Shown: piece after piece, positions 1-28,510 of the stretch
Layout of the letters: the number at the start of each line of letters is the position of its first letter
Numbering within the stretch: position 1 is the stretch's first letter
Assembly: GCF_009914755.1 (NCBI RefSeq)
Contig: NC_060927.1
Direction: 5' to 3' (one strand)
Source of the DNA: the human T2T-CHM13v2.0 reference genome, Homo sapiens
DNA: 64,000 nt
Notes under the pieces: generated by a model
Told to the model about the DNA's origin: nothing
Database searches by the model: none
Seen by the model: the letters and a program-made list of their open reading frames with translations, nothing else
Made by a program: the position numbers and the translations under genes

Positions 1-3000
1 AACTGAAAAATCACAGGTCATTCCATGAATCAGTGAGATCACAGCTTGAATGATAAAAGAATCAACTGACACCACTACTGAAATGGATTAGATACTAGAA
101 CTGTCTGATAAAGATGTCAAAGCAACTTTAACATTATCATCAATTCCCTTGCAACAAATGAAAAATAGAAAACCCATCAAAAAACGTAAATTAAAGAAAA
201 GAACCAGGCAAGAAATATGTGACTGAAAAATACAATAACAATTTTTTTAAAGTTGCTATATACACTCAATTGTAGAGAAGACAAAAGATAGAATCAATGT
301 ACTTGAGAAAAAAAATTTACTCAATTTGAACAAACAAAAAGAAAATAAGGTAAAAAGAAAATGAACAGAATATCAGGACCTGTGAGACAAAAACAAAGGC
401 AAAAATCTAGTATTTATATCATTTGAGTCTCAGAAGTAGAAGAGAAAATGTGGGACTAATAGACTACACAAAAAATATTAGCTGCAATCTCTATAAATTG
501 CGTGAAAGGCAATCCTGCAAATTCAAGAAGCTGAGTGAAATCTGAGTAGGATAAACACAAATAAATCCCTTCCAAGACATATTATAATTAAACTTTTGAA
601 AAGTAAAATAAAAGGAAAAGTCTTAAAAGCTACCAGATAGAAATAATGTATAACCTTTAGAAGAACACTGACTCCAATGACAGTGTATTTCTCATCTGAA
701 ACCTTGGAGGCCAGAGAAATTGGCATAATGTTTTTCAAGGGGTGAAAGGAAAAAAATGTCAACCACAAATTCTATATCTAAAAAATCTTTCCTTTAGCCA
801 TATAAAGGAAATAAAGACATTCTCAGACAAATAAGAGCCGAGAGAATTTGTCACTAGCAGACCTACCTTTAAAGAATGGCTATAGGAAGCTCTTTAAACA
901 GAAAAGAAGTGATAACAGAAGAATGCTTGGAACTACAGAATGAAAAGAAGAATAACAGAATAAGTAACAATAGGGATAAATATATTATACTCTCCTTTCT
1001 CTCATGAGTTTCTAAAATAATAATTGATGGTTCAAGCAAAAATTAAAATACAATATGTTATACTGTATAAATATGTGGTATGCAAGCCTGTTAACAGAAA
1101 TATTGGAAAAAAATATATTTTGGTGGTGGAGGCTAAAGGAACCTAAGTGGAAGTAAAATTTTAATAGTGACTCAATAAAACATTAATGCAAGTAGGCTGT
1201 ATTAAGTTATACATTTTATACTACATAGGGCAACCACTATGAAAAATTTGCAAAATGATATACTAAAAACAAGGTAAAAAAATGAAATCCTACCAAAAGA
1301 AATGAATAACCCACATGTATATAAAAAAAGAGAAACAGAAACAGGAAACAGAGAAAATAAGTGAAAATAAATAAAACAGCAGCCTTAAACCCTAACATTT
1401 CAATCATTACTTTAAATATGAATTACTTATACACCAGTTAAAAAAGATTGGCACAAGGGATTAAAAAAAAAATGATCCAACTTTATACTGCCTACAAGAA
1501 ACTCACTTTGAACATAAGGACATAGGTAGTATAAAATGAGAAGGATGCAAAATGCTATATTATGTTAACATTAATCAAAAACAAGCAGAAATATTTATAA
1601 AAAATCAATGAAATTAAAAGCTAGTTATTTTAAAAATTAGAAAAATTGATAAACCTCTATCATGACTGACAAGACAAAAAGAGAGCACACACAAATCATG
1701 CATAATGAATGAAACAGGATCTATTACTATAGATCCTGTACCCATAAAAGGATAATAGTGGAAAACAGCAAACAACTTTACATTCCAAAGTTAAAAGAAA
1801 TAAAAGAAATAGACCGATTGCCTGAAAAACCACAGACTGTACTTTCTGAGGGTAAAATTACTGACCTGAATCATCTTATAACCATGCATTTAATTTTATA
1901 ATGTAAAAGTTCCCTCCAAATAAATCTTGAGGCCTAGATGGCTTCCCTGGAGAAGTTTACGAAGCTCTGAAGAGGAATTAACACCAATTTTATAAAATAT
2001 GCTACAGAAAACAGGAGTGAACACTTTCTAATTCATTTTATGAGACTATTGTTACCTTGATATCAAAACAAAGATAATACAGAGAAAGAAATCTGCAGAC
2101 CAATAACTTTCAGTAAATTAGATCCACAAGTTTCAACAAAATGCTAGCAAAACAATTTTAGCATATAAAAAAGATTATATCTCATGACCAAGTGAGAATT
2201 ATCCCCAAAATACAAGGTTTGTGGAACATTTAAAAGCCAATTAATGTACCACATCAATACTACAAAAGGCAAAAAAACCACATGATCATCCCAAAAGATG
2301 CAGAAAAGTCATTTGACACACTCAACATTGTTTTCTTGATAAAATTACTCCAAAAACTAGCATTAGAAGAAAACTTGCTTAGCCTGATAAAGGGCATATA
2401 TGACAAACCCACAGCGAACATGAGACTTAATGGTAAATATGTTGATTAATTTTGTGTCAATTTGACTAGGCCACAGGATGCCAGGTATTTGGTTAAACAT
2501 TAATTCTGGGTATGTCTGTGAGAGTGATTATGGAAGATATTAGCATTTGAATTTGTAAACTGAGCAAAGCAGATAGACCTCCTCAGTGTGGATGTAGATC
2601 ATCCAACTTACTGAGGATCCAAATAGAACAGAAAGGTAGAGAAAGATTGGGTTCACTCTCCCTCTGCCTGTTTGAGCTGGGACACTGATCTTCTCCTGCC
2701 TTTGGTGCTCCTGCTTCTCAGATTTTTAGACTCAGGCTGGAATCTATACTGTTAGTTCTCCGGCTCTCAGGCCTTCAAGCTACAACACAGGCTCTTGTGG
2801 GTCTCCGATCTGCAGACAACAAATTATAGGACTTCTCGCCTCCATAATTACATGAGCCAATTCCTTATAATAAATCTCATTATATATTATGTATTATAAA
2901 AATACATAATATATAATATATAAATTATTAAATATTGAAATATAAATAATATATAAATTATTAAATATAGAAATATAAATTATTTGCCTGATATAAAATA

Positions 3001-23835: not shown

Positions 23836-25195
23836 AACCTAGAAACTTAAGAGCAAATTATCTGCTTTTCTTTCAAAAATCATTAAATTGCTTTTTCTAA
23901 GAGAATGGAATATAGAGAAAGAAACCTCTCATTACACAAAGTTTATTCATAATTTTAAGTGAGCTTGTCAATGTTGTAGATGCTAAGAAGATATGCAACA
24001 AAGACACTAAAATCAAGTAAATATCTCACCATGAGTCACCATTTCAGAAGAGACTATTTTTTGCCATAAATAAAGTTCCTTTAGGAAAAGAAAAGACACA
24101 AGGAACATCAGATGACCTTGCTATGTTTCTAAATTCAAGGAATTGATACCTTTATAAAATACACATAACTAGATTATGTGAAGGAAAAAACTGGATATAC
24201 ACTGGTCAGAGAGAGTTCACCCAAGTGGGTTTTGTTTGCGGTTTTCTTTATATAGCTTGAAAACAATAGCATCCCTGTAGAAAATATGTAGTGCTTAGTG
24301 CATATAGAGACAGGAATAGTCACAGCTAATTGTGAAGATGATGTAAGTCTGTCTGTTCTAAGTCAAACCTAAACTAACCGTCTTTCACTTCCTATCCCAA
24401 ATCTTTCTTTTTCTATATTCCCAATCTCAGAAAACAGCACCATGGTATATGAAGCACTAGAGCTGGAATCCTGAAAGCTACGTTCTAGCCTTCCATTTCT
24501 TTTCATCTCCATTTCTGCTTGCTAATTGTGCTTTTCTCACTTCAACACATCATCCTGAAAACAGAAAGCAGCATCTTTTTCACCATCCTCTTCTTTCAAT
24601 TCCTACTTCTATGGCCTCAACTCTGACATTGTCACCTCTCTTCTTTGTCTAACTCTACTGACAGAGAAAGAGACTTGCAAAAACAAAGATGGTTATTTGT
24701 GAGCTAGGCCAGAGAGTAAATAACAACAACAACAACAAAAATCACAAAAACAAAAATATCTGTCCTGAAATAAAATACCCAGGTCAAATTGGAAAAACCA
24801 GAAAAAAAAAAAGGTGTGGGGGGTGAGACTATGCTTTTGGTTCAGGGCTAAATGTGGAGGAGAGTTATAAAGAGGTGAGATTGAAAGTGGGAAGAAGGAA
24901 ACATATATTGGCCATCCCGTGAAGAAGGCGTATGTGAAGTGGCCTGGATCAATTCTGAGACAGTGTGGCAATACCTGTGGTGTTTGTTTTGTGGTCCATG
25001 TGCACAAGCATGATTGAGCCACATTTATTACAGTGGTCTGGATAGGGTAGACATTCAGAACCCTTGCAACGATCTCCCTACCTCCATCAAATTTTCCACA
25101 CTTACTGAACATATTTTCCCTCAGTTATCTGTTCTTATTTCTCTCCTACTTGAGACCTTTCAGTGACTTTTTAATGGCTGTTCTTGGCATGAACG

Positions 25196-25717
25196 TATAG
25201 GCGAAGAAAAATAATTCTTTCTTCAACTCTCACAGGTTCCAGTTGAAATGGAACCCTGTAGAAAAGATAAATCAACAAGAGAAAAACAAAAAGAAATATA
25301 TATATATGGAGAGAGATAGCCAGGGAATGAATAATTCTCAAAGAGGTAGCTTTGAAATTCAGCTTACATAACATCTTCAACAAAGAACAATAAATTTTTA
25401 GAGAAGTAATGACAAAGAAAAAGGATTTTCACTCTCTAGCAGTGGTAATTTTAAAAAGGCAAATAACTGGCAGAAAAACACTAATTAATAAGGTTTTTCA
25501 CAAGGGCAGTAAGAGTCTAAAGTTGTCTTCAGTGGTTAAGCTTTGCTCCCCTTGTAGAGGGGTGAGACAGGATATCTTCTGTCTTTGTAAATCTATGACC
25601 TGCTTTTAGGCAAAGAGAAGGAGGGCAGACAGCTTTCCTGCATTTGCTCCTTCTTAACTGTCTTCAGCTCAACAATCTTCCATATTTTGGAATACTTCCA
25701 TATTCTGATCTCCCACT
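25196..25717 (-). mobile_element. MER34-type (ERV1, MER4 group) solo LTR
   Basis: Reverse complement matches the MER34 start 'gggagatcagaatatg..ttgagctgaagacagttaagaaggagcaaatgcaggaaagctgtctgccctcc'. Confidence 0.8.
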
Positions 25718-25739
25718 AAAGCCATGCTAATGACTGTCA

Positions 25740-25895
<156 letters not shown>

Positions 25896-25899
25896 ATGT

Positions 25900-27200
25900 A
25901 TTTTGATCCCTTAGTGCCAGTGGAATAGAAAAGAAGGTGTCGGCAGGGTTGAAGGCAGTATACCAAGTATCAATAGTCTATGATAGATTCAGTTATAATC
26001 ACTATGTCTAGAACATTAGAACAGCCAGTTTATAGGTGAAATAACTGAATTCAATTGATCATCATCTGCCAGCTCACTTTTACTGGTCATGCAGGGCTTT
26101 TGTTTCAATATACGACATCTCTTACTACCCCTTACTACTAGTAAGAGATGTCGTATATTGAAACAAAAGCCCTGCATGACCAGTAAAAGTAAAAGTAAAA
26201 GCTACTTTCATTTCCTTAATCCAAGCTCTCATTTTTCTTTCTTTTCTTGTGATTCTATATAGTTTTGGTTGGACTACTCAAGAAAAGACCAAGAGGGGGT
26301 TTGATGACAGATTTATAGGTCTAACTATCACTTTCTACACGTGGCTTTTCAAGATTCAGAGAATCACTATACATTCAGCAGTGGAAGCTACAATGTTAGT
26401 TAACAAACAGGCCCAAATGACCCTACACAGGTCTCTTTCCCCATCAGTTGAAAGCAGGTACCCCCCTTATAGGTCCTGTTCCCATGGTGACTTTGGCATC
26501 TATAGCCAAAAGAACCATTAATGTTGGATTCCCTCCTCTCCTTTGCAGTGTGTTCACATGGATGCATGAGGCCTTTATTCCCTCCTTTGGGGACAGGGAG
26601 ACCTTGGCCTCACCCTAATCATCATTCTGCTTAAAGCAGCTGAAGTATTAGAGAGCAAGTGAGGGAGAAAGTGGCTCTGTGCCACACACACACACAAAAG
26701 GTACATTTACATGTGGTTTCAAGCTGTGCTGGGACTGGTCATGGCTGAATAAAAAACACTTTAAATACTGTCTGCCTGCCTAAAGTCCTACATGAAGCAG
26801 CAAGGTCATCATTATTGCTACCATCTATGTCAACTTTGGGGACCTCTTGACTCAACAGCTGCAGACACATTGCTTTCTGCTGGAGCTGTAGTTTTTGCCC
26901 CTTTTTTGCTGACTCAAGCTTGCCAACACTTTTTGCTAAGGAACCCACCACAGTGAGGGCATTTCCTGCCACATTGTCAAGATAACTTCTCTGAAATCTC
27001 ACCTGTTTTTAATGTAACAGCTAGGAGAGTTTTCCAGGGCAACAGGGTTGACCACAAGAAATTCTTTATATTTATTTCAGTCATTTCTCATTCTTTAGTG
27101 GGTGACCTTTATTAGCATTATAAATTCTCTGCAGTATCCTCTGAATACTATCAGTCTGTCAATTTTGGGTGGAGCCTAATTTATCTGTCTTAAGGAACTC
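25900..27200 (-). mobile_element. Decayed class III (ERVL-like) retroviral internal region: gag end, protease and N-terminal RT
   Basis: Manual minus-strand translation gives collinear motifs: gag LLSQEVPKVDIDG (cf. ERVL HGVPRSEID); probable gag stop at 26615-26617; protease LLAIDAKVT (degenerate LLDTGAxxT, 26486-26512) and IVASTAECIV (cf. VVISPVPECII); pol VVQPKLYRI..IKEMKVA, SPA*PVKVSWQM and TWYTAFNPADTFFSIPL (25918-25968; cf. WYAAIDLANAFFSIP). Confidence 0.85.
26076..26190. repeat. Perfect inverted repeat: 52-bp arms with an 11-nt loop
   Basis: 26076-26127 is the exact reverse complement of 26139-26190; spacer ccccttactac. Confidence 0.98.
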
Positions 27201-27267
27201 TCCCTAAAAAGGCCAAAGCTTTCTTAGAGGACAGGAGCCTCTGCCTAGGACCCTAAGACATTATTTT

Positions 27268-27530
27268 AGATAGATAGTTCGAAGAAGGCCTCACTGAAGA
27301 GGTGATATTTTAGAAGGATTTGTTTAAATTGTGAACATGAACTGTGTGGGTATTTGGTGGAAGAGTGGTCCAGAAAGTGAAACAGCCAGTTAAAGGATCC
27401 TGAAACAAGAATCTGAGGAGTACAAGAGAAGAACAACAGAGAAGCCAATGTGACTGAAATAGTGTGAAGGAAGAAACATGTGGTAGGAAATTGTTTCCAA
27501 TATAATATTTAAAGGAAGACCTACTGGAAT
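27268..27530 (-). mobile_element. L2 fragment
   Basis: 'gaaggcctcactgaagaggtgatattt', 'ggaagagtggtccagaaagtgaaacagc..aaaggatcctga', 'gaagccaatgtgactg'. Confidence 0.75.
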
Positions 27531-27585
27531 ATTATAACCAAATAATTTATTATTATACTTCATCAGTATTGATTCATGTATCGAA

Positions 27586-27730
27586 GAGATCAAGTCTTGC
27601 TCTGTCACCCAGGCTGGAGTGCAGGGGCACGATCTCAGCTCACTAAAACCTCCGCCTCCCAGACTCAAGTGATTCTCCTGCCTTAGCCTCCCAAGTAGCT
27701 GGGATTACAGGTGTGAGCCACCACTTCAGA
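27586..27730 (-). mobile_element. Alu right-arm fragment without its poly(A) tail
   Basis: 'gtcttgctctgtcacccaggctggagtgcag..gattctcctgccttagcctcccaagtagctgggattacagg'. Confidence 0.9.
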
Positions 27731-28369
27731 CAAAAAAAAAAAAATTTGAATACTATACTTTCTCATAGTTTCTTACATATAACCTCTTACATTTATGTGT
27801 TTTGCCCTGTTCATCCCCTCCCCCTCTTTTTTGGTCTTACTTGTTATCTGTCTTCTAAATTACATCAATAGCAAATTATGCTTTACGAAGTTTAATATTT
27901 CTGGAGAACTCAGTGACACATTAACTCAGAGTGCTAAATACACTTTGTTCTAATATTGAAACCAGAAGGAAAATGCCCACGTCCTTTTGAGAATGTGGAA
28001 GAAGACTTCAGGTTATGCAAGGGTTAACCCTGTATGTGAAATAGAGGATGATTATGTTGGCCACTGAGTAAACAAAGAAAAGGAGACAGCTCTGCTCTCT
28101 TATTGTAATTGCAAATTTATTTTTTATAGTTTCTATTTTCCTTTAAACTGCCTTAATCTGTCTTCCTGCTGTGACCTATTTCCGGTAATGCATATTCAGT
28201 ATAAAAATAGTAGATCAAATCATATCAGAACTCAAGTTACTCCTTGTGGAGCAGAAATACGTACTTTTATACAACAGTGAAATCAATTCCCCTCATACTA
28301 ATTATTTAATTTCCATAATACACTGACTGTATTCTGCTATTAAGTATTCATATCTAAAACTTGTTTTGT

Positions 28370-28510
28370 AATATTTTAATAGTTCTTCCTTTAAACAACA
28401 CTGTGAGGAAATACAGTTACTATTTTATAGATCAAGCAATTGAGCAGTTGGAAAGTTAAATTATTGATCCAAAGCCATACAATGAGGCTTTGCGTATACT
28501 TGTAACCAGG
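28370..28510 (-). mobile_element. MIR fragment
   Basis: 'acaacactgtgagg..attttatagatcaagcaattgag..aagttaaattattgatccaaagccataca'. Confidence 0.6.

What the first reader, a model, noticed from the sequence alone, without database searches (positions are those of the whole stretch)
26076..26199. Perfect 52-bp-arm hairpin made by a young templated insertion in an ancient ERV RT gene; candidate de novo miRNA-like hairpin or cruciform
Seen: 26076-26127 and 26139-26190 are exact reverse complements, including an undecayed CpG, around an 11-nt loop, while the host ERV is extremely diverged. The fossil reading frame shows which arm is original. On the minus strand VVQPKLYRI..IKEMKVA (26277-26200) joins GVVRDVVY*NKSPA*PVKVSWQM (from 26131 down) in register with recalled ERVL pol (IKDLKDA-GVVIPTTSPFNSPIWPV..SWRM) once ~26132-26199 is removed. 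That 68-nt insert has three templated parts: a direct copy of (c)ttactac, the 52-nt inverted copy, and slipped taaaag repeats. Established: template switching and Pol theta-type end joining produce such compound inserts, and template switching has been proposed as a source of primate miRNA hairpins. Inference: the event is recent, possibly lineage-specific or polymorphic, and would fold on either strand if transcribed.
Basis: partly seen in the sequence, partly recalled or inferred. Interest (0 to 1): 0.8.

Follow-up and report, generated by a model that had tools for sequence, protein, structure and literature searches.

The report
Templated inverted insertion in ERV fossil
A 68-base stretch copied backwards from the DNA right next to it was inserted into a long-dead retroviral gene on human chromosome 3, creating a perfect 52-base-pair hairpin; it is a clean example of a known copying error and shows no sign of being a gene.

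Summary
Arms 26076-26127 and 26139-26190 are 52 nt, 100% complementary, with an 11-nt spacer. The next-longest perfect inverted repeat in the 64-kb window has 17-nt arms. Both strands fold at z about -18.5, while the flanks alone are unstructured.

Three natural HERV-L-like RT copies from the same genome show the hairpin was made by an insertion. The fossil pieces on either side of it align to adjacent residues. MAFFT opens one 68-column gap opposite window 26133-26200 in all three. Every inserted base can be templated from the left flank within 56 nt: an 8-nt direct copy, the 52-nt inverted copy, and two overlapping re-copies of the arm's end.

This is a short-range template-switch or fold-back insertion, a kind known in tens of thousands of primate loci. 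It is far younger than the ERV. However, zero arm differences only bound its age to under about 19-43 Myr, so human-specificity or polymorphism is untested. The miRNA idea has no support: no Rfam miRNA match, no annotated gene, an intergenic site, a 52-bp stem against the preferred 35 bp, and a published base rate of 0.9%. It is most likely neutral. Interest is low to moderate.

The parts
26076..26127 (-). Left arm: original fossil RT-coding sequence (ERV sense is the minus strand), and the template for the inverted copy.
   Evidence: arm. In the register fixed independently by the upstream piece, the arm peptide matches L030 at 6/18 (13 of 20,000 shuffles as good) and L036 at 5/18 (125 of 20,000). 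L031 gives 3/18, not significant. DNA identity to the paralogs is weak: 19/52, 21/52, 19/47.
26128..26132 (.). Original junction bases, now the first part of the hairpin loop. Whether 26132 is original is ambiguous.
Evidence: column 252 = 26132 aligns to the paralogs and the gap starts at 26133.
26131..26138 (+). 8-nt direct copy of 26121-26128, sharing one C with the original sequence. It forms the rest of the loop.
   Evidence: In this window a 7-mer recurs directly within 50 nt by chance in 3.6% of trials.
26139..26190 (+). Right arm: 52-nt inverted copy of 26076-26127, the core of the insertion.
   Evidence: It lies inside the 68-column gap in 3 of 3 paralogs.
26188..26201 (+). Stutter: two overlapping inverted re-copies (26188-26196 and 26194-26201) of the template end 26076/7-26084. 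This gives three tandem 6-nt units at 26183-26200.
   Evidence: sequence.
26200..26277 (-). Fossil RT piece immediately upstream of the insertion, in ERV sense.
   Evidence: It aligns ungapped to L036 residues 8-33 (score 46, 0 of 2000 shuffles as good), L030 11-34 (9 of 2000) and L031 36-61 (65 of 2000).
26054..26131 (-). Fossil RT piece immediately downstream of the insertion. It includes the left arm.
   Evidence: It aligns to L036 34-62 (81 of 2000 shuffles as good) and L030 37-65 (15 of 2000). There is no meaningful alignment to L031 (1088 of 2000).
25918..25971 (-). Best-preserved RT motif of the fossil, collinear with the pieces above.
   Evidence: tblastn with L030 residues 95-112, 67% identity, E 1.3e-5, and with L036 93-117, E 9e-5.
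25750..25908 (+). Alu fragment that interrupts the RT fossil just downstream. Context only, not part of the event.
   Evidence: Masked in the hub annotation. Metazoa_SRP-like sub-threshold hit at 25754-25870. My 48-aa query that ran into it drew mostly Alu-like hits across the genome.
26370..26670 (-). Protease-like region of the same ERV fossil, shared with paralogous fragments on other chromosomes.
   Evidence: 64-80% DNA identity to L017-L024. The protease active-site-like motifs were seen only by eye; Pfam found none.

Best explanation
This is the scar of a single compound template-switch (fold-back) copying error, and it most likely has no function.

Proposed path: while the + strand was being synthesised across an old, already dead ERV-L-like RT fossil, the growing 3' end left its template just after 26131/26132. 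It re-copied about 8 nt it had just made. It then turned back and used the 52 nt behind it (26127 down to 26076) as template, producing their reverse complement. It stalled at the same template end, re-copied that end twice, and then returned to the original template at the very next base.

The net result is +68 nt with nothing lost, and a perfect 52-bp inverted repeat with an 11-nt spacer.

Shown: the insertion, its size, its fully local templating, and its youth relative to the ERV. Inferred: the order of the steps, the strand that was growing, and whether the setting was a replication fork or break repair. As DNA the site can form a hairpin or cruciform and may be prone to deletion. As RNA it would fold on either strand, but nothing indicates that it is transcribed.
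For: - Perfect 52-nt arms. Nothing comparable elsewhere in the window.
- The flanks alone are unstructured, z +0.10, +0.20 and -0.87, so the event created the stem.
- Natural HERV-L-like RT open frames L030, L036 and L031 were found in the same genome. Pfam RVT_1 gives E 1.2e-5, 5.1e-10 and 3.6e-4; only L036 is above the curated cut-off.
- The best PDB matches for L036 are entries named Pr125Pol and Peptidase A9/RT/RNase H, E 7e-23 to 1.5e-20, ahead of MLV-type RT at 3e-17.
- The fossil pieces on each side of the insert align to adjacent reference residues: 33|34 in L036, and 36|37 in L030 when the upstream alignment is extended ungapped. No residue is missing.
- One 68-column gap in 3 of 3 paralogs.
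- All inserted bases are templated from the left flank within 56 nt.
- The arms show 0/52 differences, while the host differs from its relatives at about half of all sites. About 17-29 arm differences would be expected if the copy were as old as the fossil (a crude estimate).
- No other genomic copy of the hairpin exists.
- The kind is well documented. 53,666 putative template-switch events were found in human-lineage genic regions, and 31,007 of them made new stems (PMC10710096 section 9). Event lengths of 20-88 nt are listed in its Table S1. Events up to 318 bp are reported in human haplotypes (PMC9435742 passages).
Against: - No orthologue or second human haplotype was available, so the empty allele is inferred from paralogs, not seen.
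- The left arm is only 37-40% identical to the paralogs at DNA level, against 52-58% for the adjoining fossil. One of three references (L031, itself disrupted there) gives no support for the arm.
- Pfam and PDB find nothing in the window's own translations.
- Junction microhomologies are only 1-2 nt, and the 8-nt direct copy has no obvious primer. A two-event history cannot be excluded.
- A net 52-nt inverted insertion lies in the upper part of the reported size range.
Confidence: 0.85

Rival explanations
1. The same scar, but made during double-strand-break repair by Pol-theta-type end joining or synthesis-dependent MMEJ. A resected 3' tail snaps back on itself and is extended, with repeated abortive rounds, before the ends are joined. 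This is a sub-mechanism of the best explanation rather than a different kind of event.
For: The insert is compound, with three separate templated pieces, and stutters at one template end. That resembles the iterative cis/trans templated extension described for Pol theta (PMC4912351, listing abstract only) and snap-back SD-MMEJ (PMC5728401 and PMC2943611, listing abstracts only).
Against: No base of the fossil is lost at the junction, whereas end joining usually trims. Fold-back inverted insertions at breaks in yeast were mostly about 5-34 bp (PMC11724301, listing abstract); this one is 52 + 16 nt. Junction microhomology is minimal.
Confidence: 0.25
2. An old inverted repeat whose arms are kept identical by recurrent template switching or gene conversion between the arms. 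Under this reading, perfect identity does not mean youth.
For: Template switching between imperfect arms is reported to homogenise and expand inverted repeats (PMC13100816 and PMC8604942, listing abstracts only). The age bound from identity alone is loose.
Against: The stutter and loop copies are also exact matches to their template. Those matches would not be maintained by arm-to-arm homogenisation. Long perfect repeats with short spacers are described as unstable (PMC13155455 passages).
Confidence: 0.07
3. A de novo miRNA or endo-siRNA hairpin gene born by template switching.
For: Either strand would fold into a very stable hairpin with an 11-nt loop. Template switching has produced annotated primate miRNAs, with event lengths of 20-88 nt.
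Against: No Rfam miRNA family matches the hairpin; the only hits there are generic long-hairpin matches far below threshold, for example STnc400 at 41.4 bits against 80. No gene is annotated in the window, which is intergenic. The stem is 52 bp and perfect, against a strong 35-bp preference, and post-event mismatches are reported to aid processing. The base rate is 57 of 6,054 = 0.9% even inside genes. The locus is not among the template-switch miRNA loci of Table S1 (no locus with coordinates 780-784...).
Confidence: 0.03
4. An assembly or read fold-back artefact in T2T-CHM13.
For: None from the tools.
Against: The insert is small, internally structured (direct copy, inverted copy, stutter) and sits at a precise codon boundary of the fossil. 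That is not what a chimeric-read artefact would be expected to give. This is my inference; raw reads were not available.
Confidence: 0.02
5. Insertion of a palindromic miniature DNA transposon (MADE1-like).
For: Such elements form near-perfect hairpins (recalled, not tested).
Against: No other copy exists in the genome, with the caveat that the search skips very common words. One arm is collinear with the RT fossil, and the whole insert is templated from the adjacent flank.
Confidence: 0.01

Closest known systems
Short-range template-switch mutations (four-point model; Loytynoja and Goldman 2017, PMC5453318; Loytynoja 2022, PMC9435742)
   Same: A nearby stretch is copied in reverse complement in one event. 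The source lies within tens of bases. It creates perfect base pairing from unstructured sequence, and the size is within the reported range.
   Different: This is a pure net insertion with no replaced sequence. It also carries an extra 8-nt direct copy and a double stutter at the template end. The event was inferred from paralogs rather than orthologues.
Template-switch-born primate miRNA hairpins (Monttinen et al. 2023, PMC10710096)
   Same: The same mutational origin. The 11-nt loop meets the preference for 10 nt or more, and the event length lies within the 20-88 nt of their Table S1.
   Different: Intergenic with no annotated transcript. The stem is 52 bp and still perfect, against a 35-bp preference. 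No miRNA annotation or Rfam match. Their genome-wide scan covered genic regions only, so this locus could not be in it.
Pol theta / SD-MMEJ snap-back templated insertions and fold-back inverted insertions at double-strand breaks (PMC4912351, PMC5728401, PMC11724301)
   Same: Locally templated inverted sequence, several short templated pieces, and repeated re-initiation.
   Different: Longer than the typical 5-34 bp. No accompanying deletion and almost no junction microhomology.
Long perfect inverted repeats / cruciform-forming palindromes of the human genome (census in PMC13155455)
   Same: Perfect arms, short spacer, and the potential to form hairpins or cruciforms and to be unstable.
   Different: The ten largest human ones have 80-140-nt arms and GC of 1.2-37.5%, five of them under 12% (supplementary Table 4). 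This one has 52-nt arms of complex sequence (36.5% GC). Its 11-nt spacer falls outside that census's limit of 8.

Membership tests
Short-range template-switch mutation / templated inverted insertion | The new sequence is the exact reverse complement of sequence close by | tested here: met
   52/52 nt, with the source 11 nt away.
Short-range template-switch mutation / templated inverted insertion | The segment is absent from the ancestral state | tested here: inconclusive
   Absent in 3 of 3 paralogous RT copies, and the flanking pieces abut on the references. True orthologues and other haplotypes were not available.
Short-range template-switch mutation / templated inverted insertion | One event explains the whole cluster of changes | tested here: inconclusive
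   All 68 nt are templated from the left flank within 56 nt. The 8-nt direct copy and the stutter could in principle be separate events.
Pol theta-mediated end joining / SD-MMEJ snap-back insertion | Microhomology at the junctions, usually with loss of flanking bases | tested here: inconclusive
   Junction overlaps are only 1-2 nt. No fossil residue is lost.
Canonical miRNA gene | Stem of about 35 bp with an apical loop of 10 nt or more (as quoted in PMC10710096) | tested here: not met
   The stem is 52 bp and perfect. The 11-nt loop is met.
Canonical miRNA gene | Known family or annotation | tested here: not met
   No Rfam miRNA family on the hairpin at E<=10. No gene in the window (hub annotation). 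Not in Table S1 of PMC10710096.
Canonical miRNA gene | Transcribed and processed into about 22-nt RNAs with uniform 5' ends | not testable with these tools
   No expression or small-RNA data were available.
ERV-L-like (class III, spumavirus-related) pol fossil, as the host element | Collinear homology to ERV-L RT | tested here: met
   Upstream piece: 0 of 2000 shuffles as good against L036. Downstream piece: 15 of 2000 against L030. RT motif at 25918-25971: E 1.3e-5. Paralog L036 best matches PDB entries named Pr125Pol / Peptidase A9-RT-RNase H; that these are foamy-virus proteins is my recollection.
ERV-L-like (class III, spumavirus-related) pol fossil, as the host element | Pfam RVT_1 recognisable in the window's own translation | tested here: not met
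   0 RT families in 6 translations at E<=1. The fossil is too decayed.
Palindromic miniature DNA transposon | Multiple dispersed copies in the genome | tested here: not met
   Only self-matches.

The most novel reading that the evidence does not exclude
The insertion is human-specific or still polymorphic. It is transcribed from some unannotated intergenic unit, and its 52-bp perfect stem is diced into small RNAs (an incipient miRNA or endo-siRNA locus caught before any post-event mutation). Alternatively, it acts as a measurable fragile or deletion-prone cruciform site.
Probability: 0.03. Interest if true: 0.55.

Novelty: new member of a known kind. Interest (0 to 1): 0.2.

Why it matters
This is an unusually legible example of a compound template-switch insertion. 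The dead RT reading frame acts as a built-in ruler. It shows which arm is original, that exactly 68 nt were added, and that nothing was lost. Every inserted base can also be traced to a template within 56 nt. The double stutter at one template coordinate hints at a template end or a strong pause there, which bears on how such events end.

Beyond that, it is one of tens of thousands of such scars. If it proved human-specific and expressed, it would be a zero-age snapshot of a proto-miRNA hairpin, but nothing found here points that way.

Tried and rejected
- Pfam on six stop-as-X translations of the window flanks gave no RT family; the only hit was DUF5559, E 0.11, in Alu-derived sequence.
- PDB sequence search with each flank piece gave 0 hits at E<=10.
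- A genome search with the 53-aa downstream piece found only itself.
- A genome search with a 48-aa frame was my mistake. Its second half is Alu-derived, and most of the 150 matches covered only that part. The two loci I inspected (L009, L014) were Alu-rich with no RT. All of these were discarded.
- A DNA search with 1,672 nt of the ERV interior gave 8 paralogous fragments. They align only to window 26370-26670 and none crosses the hairpin. Pfam found nothing in 15 of their translations, and by eye they seem to lack the N-terminal part of RT. They were not usable as a ruler.
- tblastn with very permissive settings was mostly noise. Only three alignments were used.
- L031 is uninformative for the arm because its own frame is disturbed there. 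Of the other loci, L035 is a different, gamma-like RT by eye. I did not check L037's alignment across the junction, and I did not examine the remaining seven loci further.
- The palindromic AGCT just outside both arms (26071-26074 and 26200-26203) was considered as the switch microhomology. It does not predict the observed junction without extra steps, so it is left as a note.
- The Rfam hits on the hairpin (STnc400, Srn266, snoR135) are far below their thresholds. I read them as generic long-hairpin matches.
- I did not search the literature for the arm sequence itself.
- The miniature-transposon and assembly-artefact readings were considered and rated low, as listed under the rival explanations.

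Full report
**What is there.** The sequence at 26076-26199 was read directly. The repeat finder reports arms 26076-26127 and 26139-26190, 52 nt, 100% complementary, 11 nt apart. A scan of the whole 64-kb window for perfect inverted repeats with arms of at least 12 nt and spacers up to 30 nt finds only three. Their arms are 52, 17 (AT-rich, 2879-2917) and 12 nt. As single strands the region folds into one long stem:

| Molecule | Energy (kcal/mol) | z | Shuffles as good |
|---|---|---|---|
| RNA, + strand | -92.1 | -18.5 | 0 of 200 |
| RNA, - strand | -95.6 | -18.5 | 0 of 200 |
| DNA | -63.2 | -20.1 | 0 of 200 |

The left flank including the original arm, on either strand, and the right flank fold no better than shuffles: z +0.10, +0.20 and -0.87. 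The stem is therefore not an elaboration of an older structure.

**The host element.** The window's own translations are too decayed for Pfam (0 RT families in 6 translations) or for the PDB (0 hits at E<=10). I therefore looked for natural relatives in the same genome.
- A first attempt ran into the neighbouring Alu and was discarded.
- A 1.7-kb DNA query found eight paralogous fragments. They share only a protease-like block (window 26370-26670) and do not reach the hairpin.
- A 29-aa query from the best-looking RT motif returned 12 loci besides itself.
- Three of these carry open frames of 127, 175 and 189 aa (L030, L036, L031).
- Pfam assigns them to RVT_1 at E 1.2e-5, 5.1e-10 and 3.6e-4. 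Only L036 exceeds the curated cut-off.
- L036's best solved relatives are entries named Pr125Pol and Peptidase A9/RT/RNase H, at E 7e-23 to 1.5e-20. They score ahead of MLV-type RT (about 3e-17) and HIV RT (about 1e-6).

That these top entries are foamy-virus Pol proteins is my recollection. If so, it fits a class III, ERV-L-like element.

**The insertion.** The two flank pieces were kept separate throughout.
- The upstream piece (26277-26200) aligns without gaps to L036 residues 8-33 (score 46, 0 of 2000 shuffles as good), to L030 11-34 (9 of 2000) and to L031 36-61 (65 of 2000).
- The downstream piece (26131-26054) aligns to L036 34-62 (81 of 2000) and L030 37-65 (15 of 2000), but not to L031 (1088 of 2000).
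- On L036 the pieces end and begin at adjacent residues, 33|34. On L030 they do so at 36|37 once the upstream alignment is extended ungapped.
- A DNA alignment of the window's minus strand with the three paralogs opens one 68-column gap in all three. The gap maps to window 26200..26133.

The boundary can be placed at 26132-26199 or 26133-26200. No fossil residue is missing at the junction.

**A result against the reading, and how far it goes.** At DNA level the left arm matches the paralogs at only 19/52, 21/52 and 19/47 positions. The adjoining fossil matches at 52-58%. I therefore tested the arm peptide alone, in the register fixed by the upstream piece:

| Reference | Identities | Shuffles as good |
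|---|---|---|
| L030 | 6/18 | 13 of 20,000 |
| L036 | 5/18 | 125 of 20,000 |
| L031 | 3/18 | 5,497 of 20,000 |

No other register on L030 does as well (0 of 109), and one on L036 ties (1 of 157). L031 has its own small gaps in this stretch. The next recognisable RT motif, at 25971-25918 (E 1.3e-5), lies at the expected distance: 30 reference residues against 83 nt in the window. The left arm is thus original fossil sequence on two of three references and by collinearity. The right arm, which encodes the same peptide on the opposite strand, is the copy.

**Anatomy of the 68 nt.** Exact-match mapping against the two flanks, kept as separate strings, explains every inserted base from the left flank:
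- 26131-26138 is a direct copy of 26121-26128.
- 26139-26190 is the inverted copy of 26076-26127.
- 26188-26196 and 26194-26201 are two further inverted copies of 26076/7-26084.

The 'slipped hexamer' is therefore the polymerase copying the end of the same template three times. All three copies end at the same template coordinate. That suggests a template end or a strong pause there (inference). Junction overlaps are 1-2 nt. A palindromic AGCT sits just outside both arms (26071-26074 and 26200-26203) and pairs in the minus-strand fold. It does not by itself predict the junction, so I leave it unexplained.

**Age.** The fossil differs from the HERV-L-like copies at about half of aligned sites (identity 0.50-0.52, K2P about 0.8). 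Those copies are 0.80-0.87 identical to one another. If the duplication were as old as the fossil, roughly 17-29 of 52 arm positions should differ (crude), yet none does. The event is therefore much younger than the ERV.

Youth in absolute terms is another matter. With 104 sites, one CpG per arm weighted 10-15 fold, and 0.5-1.0e-9 substitutions per site per year, the 95% upper bound is 19-43 Myr and the median is 4-10 Myr. With a flat prior, P(under 6.5 Myr) is 0.37-0.65 and P(under 1 Myr) is 0.07-0.15. These rates are my assumptions. Arm homogenisation by repeated switching, reported for inverted repeats (listing abstracts of PMC13100816 and PMC8604942), would loosen the bound further. Lineage-specificity and polymorphism are therefore open, not shown.

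**Mechanism.** The pattern is that of short-range template switching.
- PMC10710096 (abstract, section 9, passages and Table S1 read) reports 53,666 putative events in genic regions on the human lineage. Of these, 31,007 made new stems and 6,054 were of miRNA size. The events behind annotated miRNAs were 20-88 nt long.
- PMC9435742 (passages) reports events up to 318 bp in human haplotypes. It also reports a compound case of 62 + 32 bp separated by a forward fragment.
- Break repair by Pol-theta-type snap-back synthesis gives similar scars (listing abstracts only). The absence of any loss at the junction and the length argue mildly for the replicative version. Sequence alone cannot decide between them.

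**Function.** Nothing points to one.
- Rfam in permissive mode over 24000-28500 gives 13 matches at E<=10. The three that overlap the hairpin are bacterial or plant RNA families at about half or less of their thresholds (STnc400 41.4/80, Srn266 21.8/63, snoR135 18.3/45). The miRNA-family hits lie in the Alus and are also below threshold.
- The hub annotation lists no gene in the window, and none downstream within 100 kb.
- The stem is 52 bp and perfect. The processing machinery is said to prefer 35 bp, and mismatches acquired after the event are reported to help.
- The loops of both strands lack UGU and GUG, which I recall as apical processing motifs. This can be seen in the sequence, but the motif definition is recalled, not tested.
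- Only 57 of 6,054 size-suitable hairpins inside genes (0.9%) are annotated miRNAs.

As DNA, a perfect repeat of this size with a short spacer belongs to the class described as able to form hairpins or cruciforms and as mutable (PMC13155455 passages). The ten largest perfect human repeats in that census have 80-140-nt arms and GC of 1.2-37.5%, five of them under 12% (supplementary Table 4). The present one is shorter, of complex sequence, and excluded from that census by its 11-nt spacer.

**Verdict.** This is a real, cleanly resolved, fully templated inverted insertion in a dead ERV-L-like RT. It is a new example of a well-known kind of mutation, most likely neutral. The claims of recent or polymorphic origin and of miRNA-like function remain untested, and the second is unlikely. 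Whether the locus is already listed in variant or repeat databases could not be checked here. My literature checks were limited to the searches and the tables named above.

Noticed in passing
window 26071-26074 and 26200-26203: The palindromic tetranucleotide AGCT lies just outside both arms. In the minus-strand RNA fold these positions pair across the stutter bulge, extending the stem. It may be a switch microhomology or a coincidence.
   Followed up: partly
window 26192-26197 with 26203-26208: A second small 6-bp hairpin is predicted next to the main stem. It forms between the stutter copies and the right flank.
   Followed up: no
window 25750-25908 and 27584-27754: Two Alu fragments flank the ERV interior (+ and - orientation, SRP-like sub-threshold Rfam hits). 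The first splits the RT fossil right after its best-preserved motif. Sub-threshold mir-1285 and mir-1268 hits lie inside these Alus.
   Followed up: partly
L019, L020 (paralog loci): By eye, these copies pass from a protease active-site-like motif almost directly to a YxDD-like RT motif. They seem to lack the N-terminal half of RT that the window's copy retains. This may be an internally deleted subfamily. Pfam found nothing in them.
   Followed up: no
L035 (G000:C3:75179910-75182981): About 3 Mb from the window on the same chromosome there is a different, much better preserved retroviral pol fragment, with open frames of 103-171 aa covering protease-like and RT-like sequence. By eye it is gamma-like rather than ERV-L-like. 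It was not analysed.
   Followed up: no
window 2879-2917: The only other sizeable perfect inverted repeat in the window: 17-nt arms and a 5-nt spacer, in AT-rich low-complexity sequence.
   Followed up: no
window 26031-26096, minus strand: The fossil changes reading frame shortly after the arm. A different frame carries the next RT stretch (tblastn with L031 residues 75-98, E 3e-6). The fossil was therefore already frameshifted independently of the 68-nt insertion.
   Followed up: partly
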